Shown: positions 1,305-44,625 of the stretch, piece after piece
How positions within the stretch are numbered: position 1 is the stretch's first letter
How the letters are laid out: every line of letters begins with the position of its first letter
Assembly (NCBI RefSeq): GCF_024502345.1
Contig: NZ_JALDNN010000001.1
Strand: one strand, 5' to 3'
DNA length: 64,000 bases
DNA from: Escherichia coli
GTDB lineage: Bacteria > Pseudomonadota > Gammaproteobacteria > Enterobacterales > Enterobacteriaceae
Program-made: the position numbers and the translations under genes
The notes under the pieces: generated by a model
What the model was told of the DNA's origin: nothing
Databases searched by the model: none
What the model saw: only the letters and a program-made list of their open reading frames with translations

Positions 1305-1477
1305 AAAGTTCTTTGACGTTGCATTGCTGGCGTAAATGTCAGCAATGCAGCATTTCCTCACGATTCTCCTTTGACGATCGCACTTTTTGCTCGTTATGAT
1401 GGCGTCGCTAGCCTCAGTAAATCCTTACTCCGGCGGTGCGCAACCCGTGCGCGTGAACCACTATCTGAATGCTCATC

Positions 1478-6688: not shown

Positions 6689-6727
6689 TGCCTGATGTTC
6701 ATATCTTAACTTGCTGAATTTTCGCCC

Positions 6728-6776
6728 TTTGTAGGCCGGATAAGGCGCTCGCGCCGCATCCGGCAGGAAACGCCGG
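6728..6776. repeat. REP-type palindromic element
   Basis: gccggataaggcgctcgcgccgcatccggc motif typical of E. coli REP/BIME. Confidence 0.6.
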
Positions 6777-6907
6777 ACCGAATATGCCTCTTAAGTATTT
6801 ATCTGATTCTGCAACTGAATCCGTCCGCTCAGGCTAATCCCGCCATTATCAACTATGCTTTTCTCTTAATTCGCTGAAAACAACAGTAAAAGAATGAGGA
6901 AAGCATC

Positions 6908-7825
6908 ATGCCACTCTCAAAGGTCTGGGCAGGTTCACTGGTTTTGTTGGCAGCCGTGAGCCTGCCGCTGCACGCGGCTTCCCCCGTTAAAGTCGGTTCA
7001 AAAATCGATACTGAAGGCGCGCTGCTCGGCAATATCATTTTGCAGGTACTGGAAAGCCACGGCGTACCGACGGTCAATAAAGTGCAACTCGGAACGACTC
7101 CTGTGGTGCGCGGGGCGATTACTTCCGGTGAACTGGATATCTATCCGGAATATACCGGCAATGGCGCGTTTTTCTTTAAAGATGAAAACGATGCAGCGTG
7201 GAAAAACGCGCAGCAAGGTTACGAGAAAGTCAAAAAACTTGATGCAGAGCAAAACAAGTTAATCTGGCTGACGCCCGCACCTGCAAATAACACCTGGACC
7301 ATCGCCGTGCGTCAGGATGTGGCAGAGAAAAACAAACTCACTTCGCTTGCTGACCTGAGTCGTTATCTGAAAGAGGGCGGCACCTTCAAACTGGCAGCCT
7401 CGGCAGAGTTTATCGAACGCGCCGATGCCTTACCCGCGTTTGAAAAAGCCTATGGCTTTAAGCTCGGTCAGGATCAGTTGCTGTCACTGGCTGGTGGCGA
7501 CACGGCGGTGACGATTAAAGCCGCTGCCCAGCAAACTTCTGGCGTTAATGCCGCAATGGCTTACGGCACTGACGGTCCGGTCGCGGCGCTGGGGCTGCAA
7601 ACCTTAAGCGATCCGCAAGGCGTGCAACCTATCTACGCGCCTGCACCAGTGGTGCGTGAGTCAGTGCTGAAAGAGTATCCGCAAATGGCACAGTGGCTAC
7701 AGCCAGTCTTCGCCAGCCTCGATGCAAAAACATTGCAGCAACTGAATGCCAGCATTGCAGTGGAAGGACTGGATGCCAAAAAAGTGGCTGCCGACTACCT
7801 GAAACAAAAAGGGTGGGCGAAGTAA
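6908..7825 (+). CDS. osmF: glycine betaine ABC transporter periplasmic binding protein
   Basis: 305-aa ORF with signal peptide; first gene of osmF-yehYXW operon. Confidence 0.85.
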   Translation: MPLSKVWAGSLVLLAAVSLPLHAASPVKVGSKIDTEGALLGNIILQVLESHGVPTVNKVQLGTTPVVRGAITSGELDIYPEYTGNGAFFFKDENDAAWKNAQQGYEKVKKLDAEQNKLIWLTPAPANNTWTIAVRQDVAEKNKLTSLADLSRYLKEGGTFKLAASAEFIERADALPAFEKAYGFKLGQDQLLSLAGGDTAVTIKAAAQQTSGVNAAMAYGTDGPVAALGLQTLSDPQGVQPIYAPAPVVRESVLKEYPQMAQWLQPVFASLDAKTLQQLNASIAVEGLDAKKVAADYLKQKGWAK

Positions 7826-7831
7826 TTTCCC

Positions 7832-8989
7832 GTGACTTATCTACGTATTAATCCTGTTCTGGCGCTGCTGCTGTTGCTGACGGCAATCGCAGCAGCGCTG
7901 CCGTTTATCAGCTACGCGCCTAATCGTTTAGTCTCGGGTGAAGGGCGTCATCTCTGGCAACTGTGGCCGCAAACGATCTGGATGCTGGTGGGCGTTGGTT
8001 GCGCCTGGCTGACAGCCTGTTTTATTCCCGCTAAAAAAGGCAGCATTTTTGCACTCATTCTGGCGCAATTCGTCTTCGTATTGCTGGTGTGGGGAGCTGG
8101 AAAGGCGGCGACCCAACTGGCGCAAAATGGCAGTGCGCTGGCGCGTACCAGCCTCGGCAGTGGTTTCTGGCTGGCTGCGGCGCTGGCATTGCTGGCCTGT
8201 AGCGATGCCATCCGCCGAATCTCCACGCATCCGCTGTGGCGCTGGTTGTTGCATATGCAGATTGCCATTATTCCGCTGTGGTTGCTTTACTCCGGCACGC
8301 TTAACGATCTCTCGCTAATGAAAGAATACGCCAACCGTCAGGATGTGTTTGACGACGCGCTGGCTCAACATCTGACGTTGCTGTTTGGTGCGGTGCTGCC
8401 TGCGTTAGTGATTGGTGTGCCATTGGGCATCTGGTGCTACTTTTCCACCGCGCGGCAGGGGGCGATTTTTTCTCTGCTCAATGTCATTCAGACCGTGCCT
8501 TCGGTGGCGCTCTTTGGCCTGTTGATTGCGTCGCTTGCCGCGCTGGTGACGGCCTTTCCGTGGCTGGGGAAGCTCGGCATAGCAGGAACCGGAATGACAC
8601 CCGCACTGATTGCGCTGGTGCTCTATGCCTTGCTGCCGCTGGTGCGCGGCGTGGTAGTAGGCTTGAACCAGATCCCGCGCGATGTGCTGGAGAGCGCCAG
8701 AGCGATGGGGATGAGCGGGGCGCAGCGATTCCTGCATGTTCAGTTACCGCTGGCGTTACCGGTATTTCTGCGCAGCCTGCGGGTGGTGATGGTGCAAACT
8801 GTAGGCATGGCGGTGATTGCGGCGTTAATCGGCGCAGGCGGTTTTGGTGCGCTGGTTTTCCAGGGGCTGCTAAGCAGCGCCATTGATTTAGTGTTGCTGG
8901 GGGTGATCCCGGTAATTGTTCTGGCGGTGCTGATCGATGCGCTGTTCGATTTACTTATCGCACTGTTGAAGGTGAAACGTAATGATTGA
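7832..8989 (+). CDS. yehY: ABC transporter permease
   Basis: 385-aa polytopic membrane ORF; operon position. Confidence 0.85.
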
Positions 8990-9908
8990 ATTTAGCCATG
9001 TCAGCAAACTGTTTGGCGCACAAAAAGCCGTTAACGATCTCAATCTCAATTTTCAGGAAGGGAGTTTTTCGGTGCTGATTGGCACATCTGGCTCCGGCAA
9101 ATCCACCACCCTGAAAATGATTAACCGCCTGGTGGAACATGACAGCGGAGAGATCCGCTTTGCCGGAGAAGAAATTCGCTCGCTGCCAGTACTGGAGTTG
9201 CGCCGCCGTATGGGCTATGCCATTCAATCTATTGGCCTGTTTCCCCACTGGAGCGTGGCACAAAACATTGCCACCGTGCCGCAATTACAAAAATGGTCGC
9301 GGGCGAGGATTGACGATCGTATCGACGAATTAATGGCGCTACTGGGGCTGGAGTCAAATTTACGTGAGCGTTATCCGCATCAGCTTTCCGGTGGTCAGCA
9401 GCAACGTGTGGGAGTAGCGCGCGCACTGGCTGCCGATCCGCAAGTCTTACTGATGGATGAACCTTTTGGCGCACTGGACCCGGTAACGCGCGGCGCGTTG
9501 CAACAAGAGATGACGCGCATTCACCGTTTGCTGGGGCGTACCATTGTGCTGGTCACTCATGATATTGATGAGGCGCTACGGCTGGCAGAACATCTGGTAT
9601 TGATGGATCACGGTGAAGTGGTGCAGCAGGGGAATCCGCTGACGATGCTGACTCGTCCGGCGAATGATTTTGTCCGCCAGTTTTTTGGACGTAGTGAACT
9701 GGGTGTGCGCCTGCTTTCGTTACGTAGTGTGGCGGATTACGTGCGTCGCGAAGAACGGGCAGAAGGTGAGGCACTGGCAGAAGAGATGACGCTGCGCGAT
9801 GCGCTCTCCCTGTTTGTCGCGCGGGGATGCGAGGTGCTGCCGGTGGTGAACACGCAGGGCCAGCCTAGCGGCACGCTGCATTTTCAGGATCTGCTGGAGG
9901 AGGCGTAA
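8982..9908 (+). CDS. yehX: ABC transporter ATP-binding protein
   Basis: Walker [13 protein letters not shown] signature LSGGQQQRV, Walker B LLMDEP. Confidence 0.9.
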
Positions 9909-9912
9909 GCGT

Positions 9913-10644
9913 ATGAAGATGTTGCGCGATCCGCTGTTCTGGCTCATTGCTTTGTTTGTGGCACTGATTTTCTGGCTGCCTTACAGCCAGCCGCTGTTTG
10001 CTGCCTTGTTCCCACAACTGCCACGACCCGTTTATCAGCAAGAAAGTTTTGCCGCTCTGGCACTGGCTCATTTCTGGCTGGTGGGAATTTCGAGTTTGTT
10101 TGCGGTGATCATTGGTACTGGTGCCGGAATTGCTGTCACTCGCCCGTGGGGCGCGGAATTTCGCCCACTGGTGGAAACTATTGCCGCCGTTGGACAGACT
10201 TTTCCGCCCGTCGCAGTGCTGGCGATCGCCGTTCCGGTGATCGGGTTTGGTCTGCAACCAGCGATTATCGCCTTGATCCTTTACGGTGTGCTGCCCGTCC
10301 TGCAGGCGACACTTGCCGGGCTGGGAGCGATTGATGCCAGCGTGACAGAAGTTGCGAAAGGTATGGGAATGAGTCGTGGTCAGCGACTGCGTAAGGTCGA
10401 GCTACCGCTGGCGGCTCCGGTGATTCTGGCGGGCGTGCGAACTTCGGTGATTATCAACATTGGTACGGCGACGATCGCCTCAACGGTAGGGGCCAGCACG
10501 CTGGGTACGCCCATCATCATCGGGCTTAGCGGATTTAATACCGCGTATGTGATCCAGGGGGCGTTACTGGTGGCACTGGCGGCGATCATCGCAGACCGCC
10601 TGTTTGAAAGGCTGGTGCAGGCGCTTAGCCAGCACGCAAAATAA
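9913..10644 (+). CDS. yehW: ABC transporter permease
   Basis: 243-aa membrane ORF; operon position. Confidence 0.85.
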
Positions 10645-10732
10645 AGGTATAACCTGCGAGCATGACGCCACCAATTCCGCCTAACGCCATAAACAGGAAC
10701 AGGGCGATGACCCCAATTTTAGCTATGCGCAT
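10625..10732 (-). CDS. yohO: small membrane protein (35 aa)
   Basis: Minus-strand ORF translated by hand: [35 protein letters not shown]; not in the supplied ORF track because under 60 aa; overlaps yehW 3' end. Confidence 0.6.
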
Positions 10733-10791
10733 AATGCACTCCTTATGTTAACGAAAGGATTGTACAGTAAAGCGCATTTGTTAACGAATCA

Positions 10792-11523
10792 TTAAATGCC
10801 GAGTGGGAAAATATCATAGCCTTGTTCTTGCCAACTGGTGAGTTGCTGTTGTTGGGCGGAGGTTCGATTTTCACCGCACCACACCAGCAATGTACGGCCT
10901 TCGAACAGTTCAGGGCGTAGTTGATTGAGCGAGTGGGCGAGGACATCAATGCGCCATCCTTGTTGACTGGCAATCCAGCCCTCCAGCCACAGACGGGTGG
11001 TATCGTGAATATTCCAGCCAACCACCAGCGCATCTTTACCCTGTTTTTTACGTGCCGAAGCCAGACAGATGGCGATGTAGTTGATCAGTACGCCGTCGAG
11101 GATCGCCAGCAGCGCCTGGAGAGTCGGTTGTTGGCACTGAAGCCGTCGACGCAGAGGAATAAACAAATGCGTGGTGAGCGTCTGGGCGGGGTAATCCTGA
11201 CCGCGCTCTTTGATCCACGTTCGCAGGCTATGCAGATTGCCGCTTTGCAAGTAAGTCAGTAATGTTTCTTGCTGATCGCGCCAGCCGTTCTGCACATCAA
11301 CATTTTCATTACTGAGCAGCATTTTAACTTTGCTGACCTGCACGCCGTTGTCGATCCAGCGTTTGATCTCGCGGATCCGGTCAATATCGGCATCGTTGAA
11401 CAGCCGATGACCGCCGTCTGTCCGTTGCGGTTTCAGCAATCCGTAACGCCTCTGCCACGCGCGTAACGTGACAGGGTTAATATCACAAAGCAACGCCACT
11501 TCACCAATTGTGTAAAGCGCCAT
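10792..11523 (-). CDS. mlrA: MerR-family transcriptional regulator of csgD
   Basis: 243-aa ORF, N-terminal MerR-type HTH (MALYTIGEVALLCDINPVTLRAWQRRYGLLKPQRTDGGHRLF). Confidence 0.9.
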   Translation of the reverse strand: MALYTIGEVALLCDINPVTLRAWQRRYGLLKPQRTDGGHRLFNDADIDRIREIKRWIDNGVQVSKVKMLLSNENVDVQNGWRDQQETLLTYLQSGNLHSLRTWIKERGQDYPAQTLTTHLFIPLRRRLQCQQPTLQALLAILDGVLINYIAICLASARKKQGKDALVVGWNIHDTTRLWLEGWIASQQGWRIDVLAHSLNQLRPELFEGRTLLVWCGENRTSAQQQQLTSWQEQGYDIFPLGI

Positions 11524-11744
11524 CGTCTCACCCTTGCTCGCGAGGTCCCGGTTTAACTTTAGACGCAGTTTTGCGAACCAGGTAGTTTTGCCCGTTTTTT
11601 GTGCATTTATAGGGTGATTTTATTTTTGCCAGGCGATTTTGAGTGATCGTACTCACGAATTCTCATTTTTCTGCAAGAGTTCAAAGAAAGTTAAACGCAG
11701 GCAATGTATGTTACGCGTTTTAAAGGGAAGTGTGGTTTGCGGGT

Positions 11745-13430
11745 ATGTACGATTTTAATCTAGTGTTGCTGCTGCTTCAGCAGATGTGCGTTTTTTTAGT
11801 CATTGCATGGTTAATGAGTAAAACGCCATTATTCATACCGTTAATGCAGGTCACGGTTCGTCTGCCGCATAAATTTCTCTGCTACATCGTCTTTTCCATC
11901 TTCTGCATCATGGGCACCTGGTTTGGGTTGCACATTGACGATTCTATTGCCAATACCCGTGCGATAGGCGCGGTAATGGGCGGCTTACTCGGCGGTCCGG
12001 TCGTCGGTGGGCTGGTTGGCCTGACCGGCGGGTTACATCGATATTCGATGGGGGGCATGACCGCGCTAAGTTGCATGATCTCGACCATCGTTGAAGGATT
12101 GCTCGGCGGCCTGGTACACAGCATCCTGATCCGTCGCGGGCGCACTGATAAAGTCTTTAACCCCATTACCGCCGGTGCCGTCACGTTCGTCGCTGAAATG
12201 GTGCAAATGTTGATCATCCTGGCGATCGCCCGACCTTATGAAGATGCGGTGCGTCTGGTGAGTAATATTGCTGCGCCAATGATGGTCACCAATACCGTCG
12301 GCGCGGCGCTGTTTATGCGTATATTGCTCGATAAACGCGCGATGTTTGAAAAATACACTTCGGCTTTTTCTGCCACTGCGCTGAAAGTGGCTGCCTCGAC
12401 GGAAGGCATTTTGCGCCAGGGGTTTAACGAAGTGAACAGCATGAAAGTGGCACAGGTGCTGTATCAGGAGCTGGATATTGGTGCAGTCGCGATTACCGAT
12501 CGAGAGAAATTGCTGGCCTTTACCGGAATTGGTGACGACCACCATTTACCCGGCAAACCGATATCTTCGACTTACACCTTAAAAGCGATTGAAACCGGTG
12601 AAGTGGTCTACGCTGATGGCAACGAAGTACCTTATCGTTGCTCTTTGCATCCGCAATGCAAACTGGGGTCGACGCTGGTAATTCCGTTGCGTGGTGAAAA
12701 TCAGCGGGTGATGGGCACCATCAAATTGTATGAAGCCAAAAACCGTTTATTCAGTTCAATCAACCGCACGCTGGGCGAGGGGATTGCGCAACTGCTTTCG
12801 GCGCAGATCCTCGCCGGGCAATATGAGCGGCAAAAAGCGATGCTCACCCAGTCAGAGATCAAACTGCTTCACGCCCAGGTGAACCCCCATTTTTTGTTTA
12901 ATGCGCTTAACACCATTAAAGCGGTGATCCGTCGCGACAGCGAACAGGCCAGCCAGCTGGTGCAGTATCTTTCCACTTTTTTCCGCAAAAACTTAAAGCG
13001 GCCTTCGGAGTTTGTTACTCTCGCCGACGAAATTGAACATGTGAACGCTTATCTGCAAATTGAAAAGGCGCGCTTCCAGTCGCGGTTGCAGGTCAACATT
13101 GCTATTCCGCAAGAATTATCCCAGCAGCAATTGCCCGCGTTTACCCTGCAACCGATAGTGGAAAACGCCATTAAACATGGGACATCACAACTGCTGGATA
13201 CAGGGCGAGTGGCAATCAGCGCCCGACGTGAGGGGCAACATTTGATGCTGGAGATCGAAGACAATGCCGGTTTGTATCAACCGGTAACCAATGCCAGTGG
13301 GCTGGGGATGAATCTGGTGGATAAGCGTTTACGTGAACGGTTTGGCGATGACTATGGGATAAGCGTCGCCTGTGAGCCTGATAGTTACACCCGAATAACC
13401 TTACGACTACCATGGAGGGACGAGGCATGA
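11745..13430 (+). CDS. btsS: LytS-type sensor histidine kinase (pyruvate sensing)
   Basis: N-terminal membrane domain plus GAF and histidine-kinase region; start trimmed to MYDFNLVLL; adjacent to LytTR regulator. Confidence 0.85.
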
Positions 13431-14146
13431 TTAAAGTCTTAATTGTCGATGATGAACCGTTAGCACGGGAGAACCTGCGCGTATTTTTGCAGGAGCAGAG
13501 CGATATTGAAATCGTTGGTGAGTGTTCAAACACCGTGGAAGGGATCGGCGCGGTGCATAAACTGCGCCCGGATGTGCTGTTTCTCGATATCCAGATGCCG
13601 CGCATCAGTGGTCTGGAAATGGTGGGGATGCTCGACCCGGAACATCGTCCGTATATTGTTTTTCTCACCGCGTTTGACGAATACGCCATTAAAGCCTTTG
13701 AAGAACACGCCTTTGATTATCTGCTGAAGCCAATTGATGAAGCGCGACTGGAGAAAACGCTGGCGCGTTTGCGGCAGGAACGCAGCAAGCAGGATGTTTC
13801 GCTGTTACCAGAAAATCAACAGGCGCTGAAATTTATCCCTTGTACTGGGCATAGTCGGATTTATTTGCTGCAAATGAAAGATGTGGCATTTGTCAGCAGT
13901 CGGATGAGCGGTGTCTACGTTACCAGCCACGAAGGGAAAGAGGGCTTTACCGAATTGACATTACGTACCCTGGAAAGTCGTACACCACTACTGCGCTGCC
14001 ATCGTCAGTATCTGGTTAACCTCGCGCATTTACAGGAGATTCGTCTGGAAGATAACGGCCAGGCCGAGTTGATTTTGCGTAATGGCTTAACCGTGCCGGT
14101 CAGCCGCCGTTATCTGAAAAGCTTAAAAGAGGCGATTGGCCTGTAA
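13427..14146 (+). CDS. btsR: LytTR-family response regulator
   Basis: Receiver domain ([16 protein letters not shown]...) plus LytTR C-terminus; overlaps btsS stop. Confidence 0.85.
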
Positions 14147-14192
14147 AAGACTGCTAAAATGGCTTTTTGCCTCATCAACACCTGAAGGCCTC

Positions 14193-14663
14193 ATGCTAAG
14201 TAACGATATTCTGCGCAGCGTGCGCTACATTTTGAAAGCCAATAATAATGACCTGGTGCGTATTCTGGCGCTGGGTAATGTCGAAGCCACCGCGGAACAG
14301 ATCGCCGTCTGGCTACGTAAAGAAGACGAAGAGGGTTTTCAGCGTTGTCCGGACATTGTTTTGTCGTCATTCCTCAATGGCCTGATTTATGAAAAACGCG
14401 GCAAGGATGAGTCTGCTCCGGCACTGGAGCCGGAACGTCGCATTAATAACAACATCGTGCTAAAAAAATTACGCATCGCGTTTTCGCTGAAAACCGATGA
14501 CATTCTGGCGATCCTCACCGAACAGCAGTTCCGCGTTTCGATGCCGGAAATTACGGCGATGATGCGTGCACCGGATCATAAAAACTTCCGCGAATGCGGC
14601 GATCAATTTTTACGTTATTTTCTGCGTGGACTGGCAGCGCGCCAGCATGTGAAGAAAAGCTAA
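14193..14663 (+). CDS. yehS: DUF1456 protein YehS
   Basis: ORF 14136..14663; likely start MLSNDILRSV; synteny. Confidence 0.7.
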   Translation: MLSNDILRSVRYILKANNNDLVRILALGNVEATAEQIAVWLRKEDEEGFQRCPDIVLSSFLNGLIYEKRGKDESAPALEPERRINNNIVLKKLRIAFSLKTDDILAILTEQQFRVSMPEITAMMRAPDHKNFRECGDQFLRYFLRGLAARQHVKKS

Positions 14664-14672
14664 GACGGGTAT

Positions 14673-14697
14673 GGCGGCCATGCGAAACATGGCCGCC
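14673..14697. terminator. bidirectional hairpin between convergent yehS and yehR
   Basis: ggcggccatgcgaaacatggccgcc perfect inverted repeat. Confidence 0.6.
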
Positions 14698-14703
14698 GAC
14701 AGA

Positions 14704-15165
14704 TTATTTCACTTCTTTAAAACCAGCGGCTTTCATCACCAGTTCCATTTGCGCCATAGTGATACCTTTTTTGGCATCTTCAGCAGAAACGTTGATTCCT
14801 GAAATACCCTGCAGGGCTTTAAAATCCACTTTTTCCATATCGATAGTCACGTTTTCCTGCGCGTAGGTATCGGTATAGGTTAATTTTTCTTCAACACCCG
14901 CGATGTTTTTGTATTTGGCGCTTAACGGCTCAAGTGTCTTGGCAGCGTCTTCTTTGGTGGTTGCACCAATAGAGGCAAATTGAATTTTGGTTTCTGAAGA
15001 TTGCTTAAGCACCTTGTCACCTTTGTAGACATAGGTAATGGCAATTTCAGTGCCGTTCAGATTGGCGCTGAATTTCTTCGATTCTTCTTTGTCACCGCAG
15101 CCAGCAAGAGAGAAAACCAGAACAGATGCAACAACAAGGGAAAACAGCTTATTGAAAGCCTTCAT
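14704..15165 (-). CDS. yehR: lipoprotein YehR
   Basis: Signal peptide with lipobox LAGC; start trimmed to MKAFNKLFSL. Confidence 0.8.
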   Translation of the reverse strand: MKAFNKLFSLVVASVLVFSLAGCGDKEESKKFSANLNGTEIAITYVYKGDKVLKQSSETKIQFASIGATTKEDAAKTLEPLSAKYKNIAGVEEKLTYTDTYAQENVTIDMEKVDFKALQGISGINVSAEDAKKGITMAQMELVMKAAGFKEVK

Positions 15166-15289
15166 GTAAAACTCCATTTTATTTAATCAAGGAACTGGTG
15201 ACTCTCACCAGGGGCTATATAGGATATGCCTAATACCGTGGTGTGAGCAGTCCGGAACTGGAGTAGAACTCTTAGTAAAAAGCACTATT

Positions 15290-17293
15290 TCATCCTTGTT
15301 GCTGAAGCATGGGGAATAATTGTTCGCACAGCAAAACGCAGTTATTCATTGCTTCTACCCGTGCCTCGCTTTCTGTATTACGAAATTGTCCCAATACATG
15401 TGCCAGCCGATAAAAAACCACCGCGGTGAGGTCATTCGCCAGCAACTCTGCCTGACCAATAGCACTCTGTTCCTGATAGCGCCAGCCGTTATGGAGCAGT
15501 TGAATAAGTAATGCCTGGCAGCGCATCAGCAACTGATGAGCAGTAGACGGCACAGGCAGAACGCTGACAGAAGGTAGTGATGCCACCACAGGCGCAGTTT
15601 CTGCGTCCAGCGCCCAGGCACGAGTCTTTGTCATCATTACCTGTGGTTCCAGTGTCAATTGCCCATCAACAAAACTGACAAAGCCAGAAACCAGACACAC
15701 GGGGTCGTCTGTTTGTTGCAAAAGCGCCGCCATGCGTTCAATGGCATAAGGCGCGCTGGCTGAGGCTGGCAGTGATAACGTCAGCAGATTATCTTCACCT
15801 TCGCCGCTGATTACCTGCGCATCCAGCGTCTGGCGGCTGCTATCCCAACCGAGCGAAATACACTCAGCGACCGGCAGAATAAATAAGTTATCGACCTGAT
15901 TAAGAGGCCGTATGCAGGAGGGGGGACGCTGGCGTAAATATTCCCGCAAAGCCACAATGCCCGGCTGGCGTAACGGCGCGCTCAACATTTGCCAGGCATC
16001 AGGCGACAGCGGCACAACGCTGCTTAAGCGGTTGCGGGTAGCTAACAGCAGCTCGCCATCGGCACTGCGTTTTGCTGCTTGTGAAACAATTTGCCCACCC
16101 GCCAGTGCGCCAGCCTGAAAACTAAACAGCCGACGCGTAGCTGCCGGTGAGTTTTCCTGTTCACTTCGCGGCCAACTGCGCGAAAGGTGCAAAATACTGC
16201 CGGTGTCGGGATCGGTAAACCAGATGCGTAAACCATAATGCTCAATATCCTGCCAGCAACGCATACCTAAAGACACCAGCCGCAGATGATCAAGCTTTGC
16301 TTCTCCGGCAATGCCAGAGCCAACGACCGTGCGCCACGGCACAGGAGGAACTTCACCAACACTGTCGCGCCGCGCCATCTCTTGTGCGCAATTTAATCGA
16401 CTGTTTAATGCCGCAAGCTGACGTAAGCATTCTCCGGCATGATAGTGGCTGGCGCGGGCGTGGAAGGCATCAACGCTGGCGCGCAGTTGCCGTAGCGATT
16501 CACTCACCCATCGCCAGTTGCAGCGTTCCGCTGCTTGCTGCGCGCGGCTGAAAGCGGCCTCGTAGTGAATAAGCGGCTGGCTGATGCCGCCCAGCCATAA
16601 TGCCTGGCTTAGTTGCTGAACATATTGACGACACGTTTTGCCTTCTTCGCTGGCAAACAGATCGTCAGATGATGTGACGTGTTCGCTGCGCATCTGCCAG
16701 ATTAAATGAGTCAATTCCGGTTGCTGCGCTTTTGCCTGGACAAAGGCCTGTACTGCCAGTACGACATGTTCGCAAAGTGTGCCTTCAATACAATCACAAC
16801 GGGCGAAACGAATGCTGCTACGGGAATAAAAACGCACATCGCTCATCGGTAAGCGGGCAGAGGGAATTTCGCCCGGCGTACAGAACAACTCAATGGTGAT
16901 GCCTTTAGCGACCAGCGCCTGCGCGCGTTTGCGGGTGGCATCGGGCAGGGTAGCCAGTTCTTCCAGCCAGATTGCCGGATCCCACTCTTCTTCTTTTTCT
17001 GTGGGCTGGACGGTGGCACAAAGTCGTTGATAACTTAACACCAGCATCACGCGATGACGGCACATGCCGCTGGCCCCGCAGCTGCACTGAGCCTCTTTCA
17101 GTGCCTGGCCGTTCGCCAGCTGGGTACGGACACCGTCACTGAAGGTGGCGATTAAAGCGCCGTTCTCATGGCTGATCTCCGGGACGTTGCCATTTTCCAG
17201 TTCCTTAAGACTGCGCTTAACAAAACCGGCATTGCTTAACGCTGTCAGGGCCTGCGGTGTCAGTTCTAATAATTCCGGACGTAGTGAATTCAT
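15290..17293 (-). CDS. yehQ: SWIM zinc-finger protein YehQ
   Basis: Large ORF with CxC...CxH SWIM-like motif (AQCSCGASGMCRHRV); ATG overlaps yehP stop in ATGA arrangement. Confidence 0.75.
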   Translation of the reverse strand: MNSLRPELLELTPQALTALSNAGFVKRSLKELENGNVPEISHENGALIATFSDGVRTQLANGQALKEAQCSCGASGMCRHRVMLVLSYQRLCATVQPTEKEEEWDPAIWLEELATLPDATRKRAQALVAKGITIELFCTPGEIPSARLPMSDVRFYSRSSIRFARCDCIEGTLCEHVVLAVQAFVQAKAQQPELTHLIWQMRSEHVTSSDDLFASEEGKTCRQYVQQLSQALWLGGISQPLIHYEAAFSRAQQAAERCNWRWVSESLRQLRASVDAFHARASHYHAGECLRQLAALNSRLNCAQEMARRDSVGEVPPVPWRTVVGSGIAGEAKLDHLRLVSLGMRCWQDIEHYGLRIWFTDPDTGSILHLSRSWPRSEQENSPAATRRLFSFQAGALAGGQIVSQAAKRSADGELLLATRNRLSSVVPLSPDAWQMLSAPLRQPGIVALREYLRQRPPSCIRPLNQVDNLFILPVAECISLGWDSSRQTLDAQVISGEGEDNLLTLSLPASASAPYAIERMAALLQQTDDPVCLVSGFVSFVDGQLTLEPQVMMTKTRAWALDAETAPVVASLPSVSVLPVPSTAHQLLMRCQALLIQLLHNGWRYQEQSAIGQAELLANDLTAVVFYRLAHVLGQFRNTESEARVEAMNNCVLLCEQLFPMLQQQG

Positions 17294-18426
17294 GACTGAA
17301 GATTCTCCGCAAGCCATGATGCCAGTTCGCCCGGTGTCATGGCGGCTATTTGTGCGCCGACATTAACCAGCGCCTGGGCCGTATCGCGGTCATAGCAAGG
17401 CGTTGCTGTGCTATCGAGCGCCGCCAGTCCCAGCACTTTGATGCCGCTCTGGACACACTTTTTCACCTGATGCGTCAGCAATGATGATGAACCCCCTTCG
17501 TAAAAATCGCTCACGAGGATAATGACGCTTTTTGCTGGTTGTTCAATAAGTTGCCGACCATATTCCACGGCACTGGCGATATTGGTCCCGCCGCCCAACT
17601 GTACTTTCATTAATAACTCTACCGGATCGGCAACGTCTGCCGTGAGATCAACGACGCTTGTGTCAAACGCCACCAGATGGGTACGAATGCCGGGTAACTG
17701 CCACAAACAGGCCGCCATCACCGCAGAGTGGATCACCGAGTCCACCATCGATCCGCTTTGATCAACCAGTAAGACCAGTTGCCATTGTTCACTGTGGCGT
17801 TTAATGCGGCTGTTAAAGCGGGGGGATTCGATATACAACTTGCCGTGTTGCGGGTGCCAGTGTTGCAGGTTGGCGCGCAGAGTACTTTTGAAATCAAAGT
17901 TTCGCGCCAGTGGAATAAATGAGCGGCGACGGCGATCGCGGACACCAGAAAAAGCCTGACGAACTTCCTTTGCCAGTCGAGCCATAATTTCTTCAACAAC
18001 CTGGCGCACTATCCGGCGGGCGGCAGCCAGTACTTCGGGGTTCATCAGATGTTTGGTGTGCAAAACGGCGCGTAGCAGACTTTCAGAAGGCTGCATACGT
18101 TCCAGCACGTCGAGATTCGTCACCACATCTTCAATGCCGTAGCGCAGTACGGCATCGCTTTCCAGCCGCTCAATCACCTGTTGCGGAAACAGCGTGTGAA
18201 TACTGTTGATCCACTCAGGGGTGGTGAGATTTGAGCTACCTAATCCACCGGAACGTTCACCACGCTGGAGCCGTTCAGGATCGCGCCCATACAGCCACTC
18301 CAGCGCGTGGTCTATCTGCCGGGCGTTGTCATCCAGCCCACAAAGCGTCGTTTCTGCCGCTTCGCCAAGAATTAATCGCCAGCGTTGTAGCTCACGGGTG
18401 GTCAGAAGATCGTTCAGTTCAGACAT
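17290..18426 (-). CDS. yehP: von Willebrand factor A domain protein YehP
   Basis: vWA/MIDAS-like motif LVLLVDQSGSM; start trimmed to MSELNDLLTT (378 aa). Confidence 0.8.
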   Translation of the reverse strand: MSELNDLLTTRELQRWRLILGEAAETTLCGLDDNARQIDHALEWLYGRDPERLQRGERSGGLGSSNLTTPEWINSIHTLFPQQVIERLESDAVLRYGIEDVVTNLDVLERMQPSESLLRAVLHTKHLMNPEVLAAARRIVRQVVEEIMARLAKEVRQAFSGVRDRRRRSFIPLARNFDFKSTLRANLQHWHPQHGKLYIESPRFNSRIKRHSEQWQLVLLVDQSGSMVDSVIHSAVMAACLWQLPGIRTHLVAFDTSVVDLTADVADPVELLMKVQLGGGTNIASAVEYGRQLIEQPAKSVIILVSDFYEGGSSSLLTHQVKKCVQSGIKVLGLAALDSTATPCYDRDTAQALVNVGAQIAAMTPGELASWLAENLQS

Positions 18427-20698
18427 GGAAAACTCCCCAGTTTTGCAGCGATGCCAGTGCCTGCTGTTCGAGTTGTTGATGATGTGCAATGGCTTGTGGT
18501 GGACAATGCAACGGCATTTGCAGCGCCGAAACGGGAAGTTGCGCCAGTTGATAATGCTCAAGCACCTGATGCGCCAGCGTCCCGCGTTCTCGTGGTGGTA
18601 GCCAGGCCATCGCCGCGCGTAAATCGGGCAGGGCATTGATAAAATTGGCATCACTCAGTTGATTTAAATGACTGCTGAAACCGGCGATAAATGCCGGCTG
18701 ACAGGCCAGTTGATGGCGGGCCAGCGCCAGCAAACCGTGCAGCGCTTCGCCGGATTGTGCCGGGGATAACTGCGCCAGCATCGTCAGCGCCGCTTCGGCA
18801 CTAGCGTTGGGATGTTCCAGACGCATCAGTGCGCCAAGAGCCGCGCCGCGATCCAGCGCCGGGGCATGGATTGCCTGACTGCGTCGCTCCAGTAAGGCTA
18901 CCGCCGCAGAAAGAGAAACGCCGGGTAAATTAACGCCGCTATATAGATCGCGCAGGATATGGCAAAGCGCCTGCCAGCTATGCATGTGAGCGTGAAACTC
19001 CTTTTCATCTGGTCTGCCGTTAGATTCACACAGCCACAGCGTGCGATCGATAGCCGCGCATAACGTCGTTTGTAATATCTGCGCGCCTTGCATACCGCTA
19101 ATTTCATCCAGCCGCCATAAGGCATATAGCACTTCCAGCGCCTGGCCCATTTCGGCAAATTGATTTTCCTGGGCGATTAATAATGTGAGTTGCTCCAGTA
19201 ATTGTTGACTGAAGGACGCCAGACCCGCTAACGCCGCCTGGCTAAGACATGTGGTGATACTGCCGATTCCACCCGCGTCCAGCATATCGGTTTCTAATTT
19301 ATGGCGTGCGGCTTCCTGGAGTGTGGCACCAAAGCAGGCGGCCTCAATCAATGCCGCATGCTGGCTAAGCGGGCGGGTTAATTTCCAGCGTTCTTCACCG
19401 TTGCCTGCAAGTGTCAGTGTGCTTCCCTGCTGGCGTACAATCCCTGGGATCTCCAGTATTGCCAGCCGATGTAACACCTGACTTTGCGCTAGTCCATTGG
19501 GGTTAAAGCGATTTAAGGTAAGCTCCGCCGGAAGAGAGATTGCGGTACGTTCCAGTTCGCAGGTGACATCTTTTGGCAGAGGCGGTTGTGGCGTAGAAGG
19601 GGCAAGTTTACCGAATCCGTCACCCGCTAATGTGTCTATCAACGTTAGCAGAATCGGATCGGTATCGGGATGAATAACGCCGCGATAGCTCCATGGCAAC
19701 GGCGCATTCAGGGATTCTTTAATCAGCGAGCCTGCTAAGGCATCCAGCCAGTCAGTGCGTAACGGTAGTGTATGACCGCGCAACTGTGCCAGCGCCATCG
19801 CATGCAGATGAGCGGCAGCCATATCCGCGGTCGAAGCAGGCAAGTGGTGTTGGCGCAAACGGGTAAGAACCGTTTTTAGCAGTTGTTCTCCCGCCTGCTG
19901 TAAGCCCCACTGCCAGCACCAGCTTTGCCAGACCGGGGCAGGCATTCCTGAAAGGTATCCTGCCAGCACATCAAGGCGCTTTTCACTGTAGGGTGTGAGA
20001 TAACAACCTGTAACGGCATCTGCCAGCGAGGGCAATTCTGGCTTGTTAATGTCCTGCGGACATTCGCGCCACATTTTTGCCAGTGCCGGAGCGTGCCAGC
20101 CACCGCAGACGACTAACACGTCGCCATTGTTTTGCTGCATCGCCCATGCAATCCAGCGGGCCATGAAGGCTTCGCGCTGACGATTGAGAGCATCTCCGGG
20201 GGAATCGCCCCGCAGTTGTGCAAAATAGTGCGCCAGCGCAGAGGGTAATGCAGTTTGCTGGCTTTCATCTTCGAATAAGTGATCCCACAGGGTATCGCTG
20301 TTATCCATGCGGGTGGCACGCAGCAGTAAGGTCTGGCTTTCATCTTGCGTATCAGGCGAATCGTTCTCTTCTTCACTCTGCGCCCAGCAAGGCAAATCGA
20401 TGAAGTAAGTTTATGCCTGAATACGACGTGCGGCTTGTAGCGCCTGCCACTCCGGCGAAAATTCAGCAAATGGCGTCCAGGCACCACGCCCGGGGGCCGC
20501 ACCGTCCTGATACTGGCAATAACTGTAAATAGCTACCGGAAGCTGGTGGGCTAAAAACAGTTCGTCTACCCGGTCATTAAAATCAGCCGGGCCTTCAATC
20601 AACACGTATCGTGGCCGCTGGCTTTCGATTAATGATTTGACCAGCCGGGCGCAGGCCGGGCTATGATGCCGGATGCCGACAATTAACGGCTCGCTCAT
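18419..20698 (-). pseudogene. yehM: yehM interrupted by an in-frame TAA stop at 20411..20413
   Basis: ORFs 20411..20866 and 18419..20395 are in the same frame separated by one TAA; read through they give 759 codons from MSEPLIVGIRHH. Confidence 0.7.
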
Positions 20699-20708
20699 GC
20701 ATCTTTCC

Positions 20709-21797
20709 TCACGGCAGGCGGTGGCGGGCTTGATAATAAGCCTGCCAGTGAGCTTCTTTATGTGTGGCGACACGCTGTTCGAAGTAACGGCGCAGACGAG
20801 CGCGATCTTCTTCGTTATCTTTGACGATGGTTCCGGCAATACAGTCCACCAGATCGGCTGGCTCACCTGCGCGATTCGCTAAAAACCAGGCGCGGACGCC
20901 CACAGCGTGGGCCACGTTCACGGCTTCAGCGGTGGACATAATCGCTGTTAGTGTATCCATTGACGTTTTCTTTTCGCCGTTGGCACGCAGATCGCGGAAG
21001 GTGCGGACCAGTAACTCCAGTACCGCGTCAGGCACTTTATGCGGAATACCGCTATGGGCCAGCAAACGCGCCGAAGCACTGGCGACAAGCTCCAGCTCCT
21101 GGGCGAAATCCATAATCGGAAAGACAGTTTCAAAATCGAAGCGACGCTTTAGCGCAGCACTCATTTCATTGACGCCGCGATCGCGGGTATTGGCAGTGGC
21201 AATAATATTAAAGCCTTCTCGCGCATAGAGCTGACTGGCTTCACCAGTGAGTTCCGGCACCGTCATCACCCTGTCAGAAAGCATACCTAACAGACAGTCT
21301 TGCACTTCCAGCGGTGTACGCGTTATCTCTTCAAAACGGACGATTTTGCCGTCGCGCATTCCCTGGTAAAGCGGGGCAGGGACCAGCGCTTCCGTTGATG
21401 GACCATGATTGATAAGCAGGGCGTAGTTCCAGCCGTACTTGATTTGATCTTCGGTAGTAGATGCGCCGCCCTGGATGGTTAACCCGGCATCGCCGCTAAT
21501 AGAGGTTGCCAGTAATTCAGACAGGAGAGATTTTGCGGTGCCAGGTTCCCCCACCAACATCAAACCGCGTCCGGTGGCAAGAGTGACTAACATACGTTCG
21601 ACAGCGGAGGGACTAATCACCACTTTACGGCTAATATTTTGCGCGCTATCGCCAAGGATAAAAGCACGGGCCGCAGGCAAACTTAACTGCCAACCGGGCG
21701 GGCAAGGTGCGTTATCATTTTGTTTTAATTTTGCCAGTTCATCGGCGTATAACACAGCAGCAGGCGGACGCTGCAGATGATTATTCTGCGGTGACAT
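20709..21797 (-). CDS. yehL: MoxR-like AAA+ ATPase YehL
   Basis: Walker A GEPGTAKS; start trimmed to MSPQNNHLQRP (362 aa). Confidence 0.85.
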   Translation of the reverse strand: MSPQNNHLQRPPAAVLYADELAKLKQNDNAPCPPGWQLSLPAARAFILGDSAQNISRKVVISPSAVERMLVTLATGRGLMLVGEPGTAKSLLSELLATSISGDAGLTIQGGASTTEDQIKYGWNYALLINHGPSTEALVPAPLYQGMRDGKIVRFEEITRTPLEVQDCLLGMLSDRVMTVPELTGEASQLYAREGFNIIATANTRDRGVNEMSAALKRRFDFETVFPIMDFAQELELVASASARLLAHSGIPHKVPDAVLELLVRTFRDLRANGEKKTSMDTLTAIMSTAEAVNVAHAVGVRAWFLANRAGEPADLVDCIAGTIVKDNEEDRARLRRYFEQRVATHKEAHWQAYYQARHRLP

Positions 21798-21904
21798 ATA
21801 TTCATCCCTGAAATGTATTAATGAAATAAACGATATTTTACGCGCAATAAATGTTTGGCGCATTAGTTGTTTGAGCGAAAAATATCTGGAAAGCAGATCA
21901 CAGT

Positions 21905-22000
21905 AAATAAAAAAACCTGCTGGTGAGGCAGGTTCTTTTATTTACTATTTTCAGGCCTAACACCACAGCCTGTGCAACATCGTGTTCCAACGAACGAATT
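21905..22000 (-). ncRNA. orzO: putative Orz-like antitoxin sRNA, copy 1 (ends approximate)
   Basis: Minus-strand intrinsic terminator (stem aacctgc/gcaggtt at 21914..21934 followed by U-run on minus strand); 20-nt region 21972..21991 repeated directly in the zor leader at 22138..22157, as expected for a divergent base-pairing sRNA. Confidence 0.45.
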
Positions 22001-22229
22001 ATAACCACGGCTGGACCCCGTTGCAATTAAGATAATGAGATTTATAATCCTGACTGTTGGGACGTTGCGCCGGATCGAACCTATTTCAAGTCCTGGCTAC
22101 CGGACGGGGGGTGCTGCAGGTAGTGCCCTGATCCGGAGTGCAACATCGTGGTCCAACATACGTAAACCAGTATCGACAGGCAGTGTAAGGGTAAGGTGCT
22201 GGTGTTGCGCTCCTTAATAAGGAGAGCGG

Positions 22230-22319
22230 ATGGACTCGCTGACACAAAAGTTAACCGTGCTCATTGCTGTACTGGAGCTATTAGTGGCTCTGTTACGGTT
22301 GATTGATTTGTTGAAGTAA
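22230..22319 (+). CDS. zorO: type I toxin, 29-aa hydrophobic peptide MDSLTQKLTVLIAVLELLVALLRLIDLLK
   Basis: Hand-translated small ORF with SD aaggagag upstream; matches recalled Zor toxin of E. coli O157; followed by hairpin gggggaaaaccgcttccccc. Confidence 0.75.
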   Translation: MDSLTQKLTVLIAVLELLVALLRLIDLLK

Positions 22320-22511
22320 CGGGCAAATTGAAACGCATCTAAGGGGGAAAACCGCTTCCCCCTTTAATAAAATGATTACTGTTTTTATTAATTCATCATA
22401 TAACTCATTTTTATTTATAAATTCATCGATTTTATATTCAACGCACCATTTGACCGGGATGTGAATATTTATGTTGGGCTATTGGCAAAAAATATCTGGA
22501 AAGTAGATCGC

Positions 22512-22610
22512 AGAAAATAAAAAAACCTGCTGGTGAGGCAGGTTCTTTTATTTACTACAGTGACGCTAACTTGCTGATTGTGCAACATTTCGTACCAACG
22601 AATAAATTAT
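22512..22610 (-). ncRNA. orzP: putative Orz-like antitoxin sRNA, copy 2 (ends approximate)
   Basis: Same terminator hairpin at 22524..22544; region 22580..22600 repeated in the copy-2 leader at 22746..22766. Confidence 0.45.
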
Positions 22611-22837
22611 ATCCATATCCACACTCCATTGCAATTCAGTGAGTGAGATTTATAATCCTGCCCGTTGGGAGGTTGTGCCGGATCGGACCAATTTTAAGTC
22701 CTGGCTGCCGGACGGGTGGTGCCGCAGGCGGTGCCCTGATCCGGAGAGCAACGTTTCGTACCAACATACGTAAACCAGTATCAACAGGCAGTGTAAGGGT
22801 AAGGTGCTGGTGTTGCGCTCCTTAATAAGGAGAGCGG

Positions 22838-22927
22838 ATGGACACGCTGACACAAAAGTTAACCGTGCTCATTGCCGTACTGGAGTTATTAGTGGCTCTG
22901 TTACGGTTGATTGATTTGTTGAAGTAA
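22838..22927 (+). CDS. zorP: type I toxin, 29-aa peptide MDTLTQKLTVLIAVLELLVALLRLIDLLK
   Basis: Second small ORF, one residue different from copy 1 (T3 vs S3); same SD and terminator; O/P naming of the two copies is my guess. Confidence 0.75.
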   Translation: MDTLTQKLTVLIAVLELLVALLRLIDLLK

Positions 22928-23036
22928 CGGGCAAATTGAAACGCATCTAAGGGGGAATACCGTTTCCCCCTTTAAGAAAGCTATACTCGTCATACTTCAA
23001 GTTGCATGTGCTGCGACTTTAATTATCTAGAGTATA

Positions 23037-23354
23037 TTATTCTATTTCTTGGTTGAATATATTCTGTAGTTCACGATTAAAAATTGCTATTACAGTTTCA
23101 GGTGATTCACCTCGTAATTTCCGCTCATCAATACACTCATCTCTTATATAAATCAACGCATCATTTATTAGCGGGTCAGCATCTTCTCGATCACGTTGAT
23201 GAAATGTTGGATGTAGCCGGAATCGCTCCAGTCGATAGACGGAACCTGTAAATAATTCAGAGCATTTATGGATCTCAAGTCTGAAGGAAAACGGATCTTC
23301 AGGTACAGGGACCTCATAATCGTAAATAGCAACTAGCTCTTTTTGCACGATCAT
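23037..23354 (-). CDS. yehK: uncharacterised protein YehK
   Basis: 105-aa ORF; synteny between yehL and yehI. Confidence 0.7.
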   Translation of the reverse strand: MIVQKELVAIYDYEVPVPEDPFSFRLEIHKCSELFTGSVYRLERFRLHPTFHQRDREDADPLINDALIYIRDECIDERKLRGESPETVIAIFNRELQNIFNQEIE

Positions 23355-44058: not shown

Positions 44059-44298
44059 TTATAACTTCGTGGTATCAAGTCCGGCGGCTTTGAGTCGCTC
44101 GGTAAGATTTCTCATTTTGCTGAACTCTGTAGCAAAGCTGGCTTTAAGTCCTACACCTTCGCAAAACTCTTTTGCCGTGACGTTTTTCAGATGGTCAGCG
44201 TATTTGATCATCTGGAGGTGCATTTCCATCGTTTGGCTATTTCGTGGTGCGCTGCTAATGGCTTGCTTAATGTTCTCGTAGATCTGGGTTTCTGTCAT
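44059..44298 (-). CDS. hypothetical 79-aa protein (may start 6 codons earlier at 44316)
   Basis: ORF with SD-like ggtgag before MTETQIYENIKQ...; no signal peptide; no family recognised. Confidence 0.5.
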   Translation of the reverse strand: MTETQIYENIKQAISSAPRNSQTMEMHLQMIKYADHLKNVTAKEFCEGVGLKASFATEFSKMRNLTERLKAAGLDTTKL

Positions 44299-44499
44299 TT
44301 TTATCTCACCTATCAAATTTAGATAAATAATATAAATTAGCTAATTAAGATAGTCTACAGTTTTTACCACCTGAATGATGGGTGTGAATTGTTTCTTTTT
44401 CATTACTGATATGGGGTACACAGCGAAGACGTAATGAATGGAGGCGAGCTTGCATCTGCAAGCCTCTTCCCCTAAGCTGGCACAAAATATAGAGATTCA

Positions 44500-44625
44500 A
44501 CCAAACGACTCGGGGTGCCCTTCTGCGTGAAGGCTGAGAAATACCCGTATCACCTGATCTGGATAATGCCAGCGTAGGGAAGTCACGGACCACCAGGTCA
44601 TTGCTTCTTCACGTTATGGCAGGAG
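44500..44625 (+). promoter_or_regulatory. TPP (thi-box) riboswitch of thiMD
   Basis: ccaaacgactcggggtgcccttctgcgtgaaggctgagaaatacccgtatcacctgatctggataatgccagcgtagggaagtc directly upstream of thiM. Confidence 0.9.

What the first reader, a model, noticed from the sequence alone, without database searches (positions are those of the whole stretch)
21870..22975. Tandemly duplicated zor-orz-like type I toxin-antitoxin locus (absent from K-12 as far as I recall)
Two units about 608 bp apart each encode a 29-aa hydrophobic peptide (MDSLTQKL... and MDTLTQKL...TVLIAVLELLVALLRLIDLLK) with a long leader and, divergently, a minus-strand intrinsic terminator marking a small RNA. The peptide matches the Zor toxins described in E. 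coli O157:H7, where Orz sRNAs repress them by pairing to the 5' UTR. This is a known system type, but it is accessory content here.
Basis: partly seen in the sequence, partly recalled or inferred. Interest (0 to 1): 0.55.

Follow-up and report, generated by a model that had tools for sequence, protein, structure and literature searches.

The report
Known zorP-orzP/zorO-orzO toxin-antitoxin tandem

Summary
Window 21870-22975 holds two ~608-bp tandem units between yehL and yehK. Each unit has a 29-aa hydrophobic ORF on the + strand. Each also has a divergent minus-strand small RNA that matches Rfam OrzO-P (RF02083) above its gathering score.

The whole intergenic region differs from E. coli O157:H7 SS17 at only seven positions. 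None of these falls in a promoter hexamer, pairing site, ribosome binding site or amino acid.

Unit 1 is zorP-orzP (peptide MDS..., V1 triplet ACG). Unit 2 is zorO-orzO (peptide MDT..., V1 triplet GAA). Predicted promoters give 174-nt leaders, as published. OrzO pairs over 18 nt with +85..+102 of zorO, inside the published EAP (Exposure After Processing) region. Non-cognate pairing falls below the published threshold for repression.

- K-12 lacks the toxins but keeps an intact orzP, published as OrzPmg.
- The locus is hardly accessory. About 96% of complete E. coli genomes have at least an orz here, about 63% have at least one toxin and about 33% have this tandem.

Everything is already published (Fozo 2010; Wen 2014, 2017; the 2024 mSystems paper PMC11264685). 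Novelty: already known. Interest: low.

The parts
21906..21991 (-). orzP antitoxin sRNA gene (predicted 86 nt, 5'-GUUGGAACACGAUGUUGCAC..., V1 = ACG at +9..+11)
   Evidence: Rfam RF02083 covers 21909..21984 at 99.9 bits. The start is placed 7 nt downstream of the -10 hexamer, and the 3' end is the terminator hairpin 21914..21934 plus its U run. The V1 triplet ACG is that of OrzP in PMC3919570. The sequence is identical in MG1655.
21998..22048 (.). Divergent promoter block of unit 1: orzP -10 at 21998..22003 (minus strand), shared palindromic -35 TTGCAA at 22021..22026, zorP -10 at 22043..22048 (plus strand)
   Evidence: The consensus scan scores both promoters 10 of 12. The same hexamers are tabulated for zor and orz in PMC11264685.
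22056..22229 (+). zorP 5' UTR (174 nt predicted), with the OrzP pairing site at 22138..22157 and the RBS AAGGAG upstream of the ATG
   Evidence: Promoter position and leader length. 19 of 20 nt pair with the OrzP 5' end, with one internal mismatch. A 174-nt UTR is published for zorO (PMC5397157).
22230..22319 (+). zorP toxin ORF, 29 aa, MDSLTQKLTVLIAVLELLVALLRLIDLLK
   Evidence: ORF list. ZorP is ZorO with T3S (PMC11264685). There is one synonymous difference from O157:H7 SS17.
22341..22364 (+). Hairpin after zorP (AAGGGGGAAAACCGCTTCCCCCTT); probable zorP terminator with a weak T tract
   Evidence: Palindromic sequence (I1 arms) and a 9-bp stem in the predicted fold. It was not called by the terminator scan, so the 3' end is inferred.
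22516..22599 (-). orzO antitoxin sRNA gene (predicted 84 nt, 5'-GUUGGUACGAAAUGUUGCAC..., V1 = GAA)
   Evidence: Rfam RF02083 covers 22519..22592 at 88.8 bits. The V1 triplet GAA is that of OrzO.
22606..22656 (.). Divergent promoter block of unit 2: orzO -10 at 22606..22611 (minus strand), shared -35 TTGCAA at 22629..22634, zorO -10 at 22651..22656 (plus strand)
   Evidence: The consensus scan scores both promoters 10 of 12.
22664..22837 (+). zorO 5' UTR (174 nt predicted), with the OrzO pairing site at 22748..22765 (+85..+102, inside the published EAP region +73..+102)
   Evidence: 18 contiguous pairs including one G-U, duplex energy -31.3 kcal/mol. EAP region defined in PMC5397157. The site lies 73-90 nt upstream of the ATG, as in PMC2887945.
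22838..22927 (+). zorO toxin ORF, 29 aa, MDTLTQKLTVLIAVLELLVALLRLIDLLK, containing the ALLRL motif (residues 20-24)
   Evidence: ORF list. Identical DNA in O157:H7 SS17. ALLRL is required for toxicity (PMC6669753).
22949..22972 (+). Hairpin after zorO (AAGGGGGAATACCGTTTCCCCCTT); probable zorO terminator
   Evidence: Inferred, not called by the scan.

Best explanation
The region is the chromosomal zorP-orzP plus zorO-orzO tandem, a type I toxin-antitoxin locus sitting between yehL and yehK.

How each unit works:
- It transcribes a toxin mRNA of about 317 nt with a 174-nt leader, and, divergently, an sRNA of about 85 nt.
- The full-length leader folds so that translation is poor.
- Removing the first 28 nt exposes the region +73..+102 (EAP), which boosts translation of the 29-aa membrane peptide.
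- The first 18-20 nt of the cognate Orz sRNA pair with the 3' part of that exposed region. This blocks translation and triggers RNase III-dependent decay.
- A 3-nt variable patch (V1) keeps OrzO specific for zorO and OrzP specific for zorP.
- If made in excess, the peptide inserts into the inner membrane, depolarises it and depletes ATP.

Shown here: sequence identity, anatomy, pairing and typing.

Taken from experiments on EDL933: toxicity, rescue by the sRNA, RNase III dependence, leader processing and membrane action. These were not tested on this strain.
For: - Both sRNAs match Rfam RF02083 over the full model, at 99.9 and 88.8 bits against a gathering score of 60.
- The 1173-nt yehL-yehK intergenic region differs from O157:H7 SS17 at seven positions: 21890, 22122, 22286 (synonymous), 22474, a 1-nt A-run indel near 22487, 22612 and 22783. 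None lies in a -35 or -10 hexamer, the pairing site, V1, the RBS or a changed codon.
- The V1 triplets are ACG (unit 1) and GAA (unit 2), exactly those of OrzP and OrzO.
- The peptides are ZorP (T3S) and ZorO.
- Predicted promoters give 174-nt leaders, as published.
- OrzO x zorO forms 18 contiguous pairs at +85..+102. OrzP x zorP pairs 19 of 20 nt with one mismatch. Non-cognate combinations reach only 8-9 contiguous pairs and weaker duplex energies (-20 and -24 against -31 and -35 kcal/mol). This fits the published thresholds of at least 15 continuous or 17 discontinuous pairs.
- Folding the window's own sequences puts the mRNA 5' end (GUUGG) on the CCAAC of the Orz site in the full-length form. 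Removing 28 nt raises the mean unpaired probability of the site from 0.35 to 0.47 for zorO and from 0.29 to 0.49 for zorP, while the RBS is unchanged. That is the direction reported from structure probing.
- The genomic position matches the original description.
Against: - Nothing in the sequence argues against it.
- No expression or toxicity data exist for this particular strain.
- Transcript ends are inferred from consensus promoters and hairpins.
- The zor 3' hairpins have weak T tracts and were not called by the terminator scan.
- In-silico support for the processing switch is modest.
- NCBIfam has no model for the peptide, and RefSeq leaves the locus unannotated in nearly all genomes listed. 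Family membership therefore rests on DNA identity, the Rfam match and the literature.
- The physiological role of the locus is unsettled even in EDL933. The reported growth benefit in aminoglycosides needs extra copies and is independent of ZorO toxicity.
Confidence: 0.96

Rival explanations
1. The locus is present but is a decayed, non-functional remnant in this strain, as happens at this site in K-12-like genomes.
For: Deletion derivatives are common at this site. About a third of genomes keep only an orz (5232 genomes with any match minus 3394 with a toxin part; PMC11264685).
Against: Both units are complete here. The promoters, 174-nt leaders, RBS, 29-codon ORFs, pairing sites, sRNAs and terminators are all intact. 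The seven differences from O157:H7 avoid every defined element.
Confidence: 0.02
2. The Orz sRNAs have, besides or instead of toxin control, a trans-acting regulatory role on other mRNAs. On this reading the toxin genes are dispensable passengers.
For: Orz-only loci are widespread, conserved and expressed in MG1655 without any toxin target. An orphan antitoxin that is maintained suggests another function. The Orz promoter and sequence are as well conserved in orz-only loci as in full loci (Table 3 of PMC11264685).
Against: No other target has been reported in the papers read. The first 18 nt of OrzO suffice for zorO repression, and the pairing co-varies unit by unit. That co-variation shows selection on the toxin-antitoxin interaction where both are present.
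Confidence: 0.1
3. The 29-codon ORFs are not translated, and the repeats are only a duplicated non-coding RNA locus.
For: The peptides are very short, have no protein-family model and are unannotated in RefSeq.
Against: [quoted passage not shown] The ORF length is conserved in 99.5% of loci and the RBS in 99.8%. Within the ORF, the only difference from SS17 is a synonymous change in zorP at 22286, and the zorO ORF is identical.
Confidence: 0.01

Closest known systems
zorO-orzO / zorP-orzP of E. coli O157:H7 EDL933 (z3289/z3290; Fozo 2010, Wen 2014, Wen 2017)
   Same: Same chromosomal site (yehK-yehL), the same two-unit order and the same peptides. The V1 triplets, promoter hexamers, 174-nt leaders and pairing sites are also the same. 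There are seven nucleotide differences in 1173 nt against an O157:H7 genome.
   Different: Only neutral-looking SNPs. One lies directly upstream of the orzO -10 hexamer (22612), and two lie in the leaders at +67 of zorP and +120 of zorO. I compared with O157:H7 strain SS17, not with the EDL933 record itself.
OrzPmg, the orphan orzP of E. coli K-12 MG1655 (PMC11264685)
   Same: The window's predicted 86-nt orzP sRNA sequence is identical to that in MG1655.
   Different: MG1655 has lost everything from about +35 of the zor leader to just before yehK, which corresponds to window 22090..23017 (928 bp). That stretch holds zorP, orzO and zorO.
tisB-istR-1 and shoB-ohsC of E. coli
   Same: A divergently encoded sRNA antitoxin with only about 18-21 nt of pairing to a long, structured, processed 5' UTR at a site far upstream of the RBS. 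A standby-type mechanism is proposed.
   Different: The sequences and peptides are unrelated. zor-orz is tandemly duplicated and has no LexA control reported in the papers read.
dinQ-agrB
   Same: The 2024 paper reports 71-74% identity between about 113 nt of the zor leader and plasmid-borne dinQ leaders.
   Different: Different toxin ORF and antitoxin. I did not test this similarity.

Membership tests
zor-orz type I toxin-antitoxin family | 29-aa hydrophobic Zor peptide (ZorO, or the ZorP T3S variant) with the ALLRL motif | tested here: met
   ORFs at 22230..22319 and 22838..22927. Variant definitions and the ALLRL motif. The DNA encodes the same two peptides as O157:H7 SS17.
zor-orz type I toxin-antitoxin family | Divergently encoded Orz sRNA matching Rfam RF02083 at or above its gathering score | tested here: met
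   99.9 and 88.8 bits against a gathering score of 60, full model 1-76, minus strand.
zor-orz type I toxin-antitoxin family | The 5' end of Orz pairs with the zor 5' UTR, with at least 15 continuous or at least 17 discontinuous pairs | tested here: met
   OrzO x zorO has 18 contiguous pairs. OrzP x zorP has 19 of 20 with one internal mismatch. Thresholds.
zor-orz type I toxin-antitoxin family | V1 discriminator at +9..+11: GAA in OrzO, ACG in OrzP | tested here: met
   Unit 2 has GAA and unit 1 has ACG. Definition. Non-cognate pairs reach only 8-9 contiguous pairs.
zor-orz type I toxin-antitoxin family | Promoters TTGCAA / TATAAT, a leader of about 174 nt, and the RBS AAGGAG | tested here: met
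   compared. The transcription starts are predicted here; they were mapped only in EDL933.
zor-orz type I toxin-antitoxin family | Chromosomal position between yehK/yehI and yehL | tested here: met
   yehL lies at 20709..21863 (-) and yehK at 23037..23354 (-). The same flanks occur in O157, O103 and K-12.
zor-orz type I toxin-antitoxin family | Peptide toxic on overproduction, and rescued by the cognate Orz in an RNase III-dependent way | not testable with these tools
   Shown for the EDL933 alleles. Inferred here from sequence identity.
zor-orz type I toxin-antitoxin family | Leader processing (delta-28) exposes the EAP region that holds the Orz site | tested here: inconclusive
   In-silico folding moves in the published direction, but only modestly: the unpaired probability of the site rises from 0.35 to 0.47 and from 0.29 to 0.49. 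The experimental basis is.

The most novel reading that the evidence does not exclude
In both units the divergent toxin and antitoxin promoters use one and the same palindromic -35 hexamer (TTGCAA at 22021..22026 and at 22629..22634), with predicted starts 65 bp apart. RNA polymerase bound for one direction should then exclude polymerase bound for the other. Toxin and antitoxin transcription would be coupled by competition at the DNA level, a control layer on top of the RNA pairing. The papers I read tabulate the same hexamer for both genes, with identical conservation figures. However, in the text I could search they do not discuss sharing or promoter competition.
Probability: 0.15. Interest if true: 0.3.

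Novelty: already known. Interest (0 to 1): 0.07.

Why it matters
It matters little as a discovery. The system was found in 2010, proven in 2013, dissected mechanistically in 2016-2017, and surveyed across 2,212 E. coli assemblies in 2024. That survey included the copy-number states and the K-12 orphan antitoxin.

The result has two practical uses:
- It shows that the first-stage reader can recognise a short-peptide type I locus from raw sequence.
- It shows that RefSeq leaves both the peptides and the sRNAs unannotated in almost every genome examined, so scans relying on annotation will keep flagging this site as empty.

Tried and rejected
- **NCBIfam search of both peptides:** no family at E <= 1. 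The library simply has no model for them, so this says nothing about identity.
- **Terminator scan:** it listed the Orz hairpins only on the + strand. The hairpin is flanked by A and T runs on both sides, and the Rfam match fixes the functional strand as minus.
- **Apparent 95.9% identity to O157:H7:** this megablast figure came from joining pieces of a repeated query. A global alignment shows seven differences in 1173 nt.
- **Sub-threshold Rfam hits:** those to STnc370, Thr leader and Trp leader overlap the Orz terminator, and the isrH hit lies at 22982..23036. All are far below their gathering scores, and I treat them as chance or terminator-like matches.
- **'Accessory island' reading:** considered and rejected, because the flanks are collinear with MG1655, there are no mobility genes nearby, and the locus is present in most genomes.
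- **IS66 check:** the IS66 insertion seen in yehR of the closest genome (O103 RM8385) is not present in the window, which is collinear with MG1655 across 6719..22089.

Full report
**Observation**

- Two 29-codon ORFs lie on the + strand: 22230..22319 (MDSLTQKLTVLIAVLELLVALLRLIDLLK) and 22838..22927 (MDTLTQKL...).
- They sit inside direct repeats of 300 nt (86% identity) and 73 nt (95% identity), with a period of 608-610 bp.
- Upstream of each ORF is a G+C-rich hairpin flanked by A and T runs, at 21914..21934 and 22524..22544.
- Rfam places full-length OrzO-P (RF02083) matches on the minus strand at 21909..21984 (99.9 bits) and 22519..22592 (88.8 bits), against a gathering score of 60.

**Identity**

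The locus lies between yehL (20709..21863, minus strand) and yehK (23037..23354, minus strand). The original description gave the same site, naming yehI and yehL as the flanks (PMC2887945).

A global alignment of the whole intergenic region with E. coli O157:H7 SS17 shows seven differences in 1173 nt.

| Position | Location |
|---|---|
| 21890 | Beyond the orzP 3' end |
| 22122 | zorP leader, +67 |
| 22286 | Synonymous Val codon in zorP |
| 22474 | Inter-unit spacer |
| Near 22487 | 1-nt indel in an A run |
| 22612 | The base just upstream of the orzO -10 hexamer |
| 22783 | zorO leader, +120 |

None touches a promoter hexamer, the pairing site, the V1 patch, the RBS or an amino acid.

**Typing of the two units**

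PMC3919570 defines V1 (+9..+11 of the sRNA) as GAA in OrzO and ACG in OrzP. PMC11264685 defines ZorP as ZorO with T3S.

I placed the sRNA starts 7 nt downstream of the predicted -10 hexamers.

| | Unit 1 | Unit 2 |
|---|---|---|
| sRNA 5' end | GUUGGAACACGAUGUUGCAC | GUUGGUACGAAAUGUUGCAC |
| V1 triplet | ACG | GAA |
| Peptide | MDS... | MDT... |
| Assignment | zorP-orzP | zorO-orzO |

In window orientation the order is yehL, orzP, zorP, orzO, zorO, yehK.

**Anatomy and mechanism**

*Promoters.* In each unit two consensus promoters (each 10 of 12) face away from each other and use the same palindromic -35 hexamer TTGCAA, at 22021..22026 and at 22629..22634.

*Transcript sizes.*
- The predicted zor starts give leaders of exactly 174 nt in both units, the published value for zorO.
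- The predicted sRNAs are 86 and 84 nt, against about 85 nt on northern blots of EDL933.

*Pairing.*

| Pair | Pairing | Duplex energy (kcal/mol) |
|---|---|---|
| OrzO x zorO | 18 contiguous pairs (one G-U) at window 22748..22765 = +85..+102 | -31.3 |
| OrzP x zorP | 19 of 20 nt, one internal mismatch, at 22138..22157 | -34.8 |
| OrzO x zorP (non-cognate) | 9 contiguous pairs | -24.4 |
| OrzP x zorO (non-cognate) | 8 contiguous pairs | -20.2 |

- The zorO site is 73-90 nt upstream of the ATG and lies inside the published EAP region, +73..+102.
- The non-cognate values fall below the experimentally determined requirement of 15 continuous or 17 discontinuous pairs. This fits the published lack of cross-talk.

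*Folding.*
- In the full-length form, the mRNA 5' end (GUUGG) sits on the CCAAC of the Orz site.
- Deleting 28 nt raises the mean unpaired probability of the site from 0.35 to 0.47 (zorO) and from 0.29 to 0.49 (zorP).
- The RBS is unchanged.
- This is the direction of the published probing result, but the computed effect is modest, so I count it as consistent rather than as proof.

*Taken from EDL933 experiments, not tested here.*
- Toxicity, rescue by OrzO and RNase III dependence.
- Inner-membrane location, depolarisation and ATP depletion.
- Dependence on the ALLRL motif, which both window peptides carry at residues 20-24.

**Distribution and the K-12 statement**

| State | Genomes (of 5426 complete E. 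coli) |
|---|---|
| Any match to the region | 5232 |
| A toxin-bearing part (5224 places; median 2, highest 4 per genome) | 3394 |
| This inter-unit spacer | 1801 |

These counts imply roughly 33% tandem, 29% single, 34% orz-only and 4% none. The published survey of 2,212 assemblies gave 42%, 25%, 30% and 3%.

MG1655 keeps an orzP whose predicted 86-nt sRNA sequence is identical to the window's, followed by the zor promoter and about 35 nt of leader. It lacks window 22090..23017. This RNA is published as the expressed orphan OrzPmg. It is not a feature in NC_000913.3.

'Accessory' is better put as a widespread locus of variable copy number at a fixed site.

**Comparison and verdict**

Every sequence-testable defining feature of the zor-orz family is met. 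The functional features are known from nearly identical alleles. The closest analogues in architecture are tisB-istR-1 and shoB-ohsC.

Nothing here departs from the literature. The finding is real, correctly interpreted and already known.

The only point I could not find discussed is that the toxin and antitoxin promoters share one palindromic -35 hexamer, which could make them compete for RNA polymerase. I give this a low probability of being both functional and unreported.

**Dead ends**
- NCBIfam has no model for the peptides.
- The sub-threshold Rfam hits at the Orz terminators (STnc370, Thr leader, Trp leader) and the isrH hit at 22982..23036 are noise.
- The 95.9% identity to O157 reported by megablast was an artefact of piece-joining on a repeated query.

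Noticed in passing
window 22021-22026 and 22629-22634: In both units the divergent zor and orz promoters share a single palindromic -35 hexamer, TTGCAA, with predicted starts 65 bp apart. The papers read list the hexamer for both genes with identical conservation percentages. In the searchable text they do not comment on the sharing or on possible promoter competition.
   Followed up: partly
window 22056-22062 / 22664-22670 versus 21985-21991 / 22593-22599: Each zor mRNA and its Orz sRNA start with the same GUUGG. In the predicted full-length fold, the mRNA's own 5' end pairs with the CCAAC that Orz also targets. The 28-nt leader piece therefore acts like a cis copy of the antitoxin seed. This is consistent with the published EAP model.
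   Followed up: partly
L004/L007 (MG1655 2204290-2204595) versus window 21864-22089: MG1655 carries an orzP sRNA sequence identical to the window's, plus a zor promoter stub, in the yehK-yehL spacer. The curated NC_000913.3 record lists no feature there. RefSeq also shows 'none' under the match in nearly all genomes listed. The RNA is published as OrzPmg.
   Followed up: yes
window 23415-25622 (-) and 25632-29426 (-): The yehI ORF is only 735 aa here, against 1210 aa in MG1655 and O103 RM8385. The window lacks about 1.4 kb corresponding to MG1655 2200823-2202236. The next ORF is an intact 1264 aa where K-12 (yehF/yehH) and RM8385 have pseudogenes. NCBIfam gave no match for the 735-aa product.
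   Followed up: partly
window 42225-44497: A 2.27-kb segment lies between rcnR and the thiM TPP riboswitch. It is absent from MG1655 and O103 RM8385 and is present at 80% coverage or more in only 339 of 5426 E. coli genomes. It holds small ORFs annotated elsewhere as hypothetical protein, outer membrane protein and HTH-like protein. The three ORFs tested had no NCBIfam match. This is rarer accessory content than the zor-orz locus.
   Followed up: partly
window 60855-64000: Collinearity with MG1655 ends where K-12 has the cryptic P2-like remnant PR-X (ogrK) next to cyaR. The window instead has a 337-aa ORF that looks like a phage integrase (60943..61956, minus strand), followed by small divergent ORFs suggesting a repressor/Cox-type switch. 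This is probably the end of a fuller P2-like prophage. That reading rests on my recollection of P2 Int and on the K-12 context; I ran no family search.
   Followed up: no
window 34452-35213, 36839-37898, 39320-40287: Three stretches within the yehD-yehA fimbrial operon have no match to MG1655 in the BLAST comparison, and neighbouring stretches are only 84-90% identical. This points to divergent alleles of the fimbrial genes.
   Followed up: no
window about 58490: The window lacks the IS3E insertion that splits gatR in MG1655. The alignment jumps from MG1655 2171429 to 2170170 without a gap in the window.
   Followed up: no
window 22975-23017: The stretch between the zorO hairpin and yehK (GCTATACTCGTCATACTTCAAGTTGCATGTGCTGCG...) is part of what K-12 has lost. 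It gives a weak sub-threshold isrH hit. From memory it resembles one end of an ERIC/IRU repeat; I did not test this.
   Followed up: no
window 1393-1473, 44501-44597, 52443-52513: Other Rfam matches above gathering score are all ordinary: the Peptidase-S11 RNA motif (near pbpG by synteny with MG1655), the TPP riboswitch before thiM, and naRNA4.
   Followed up: no
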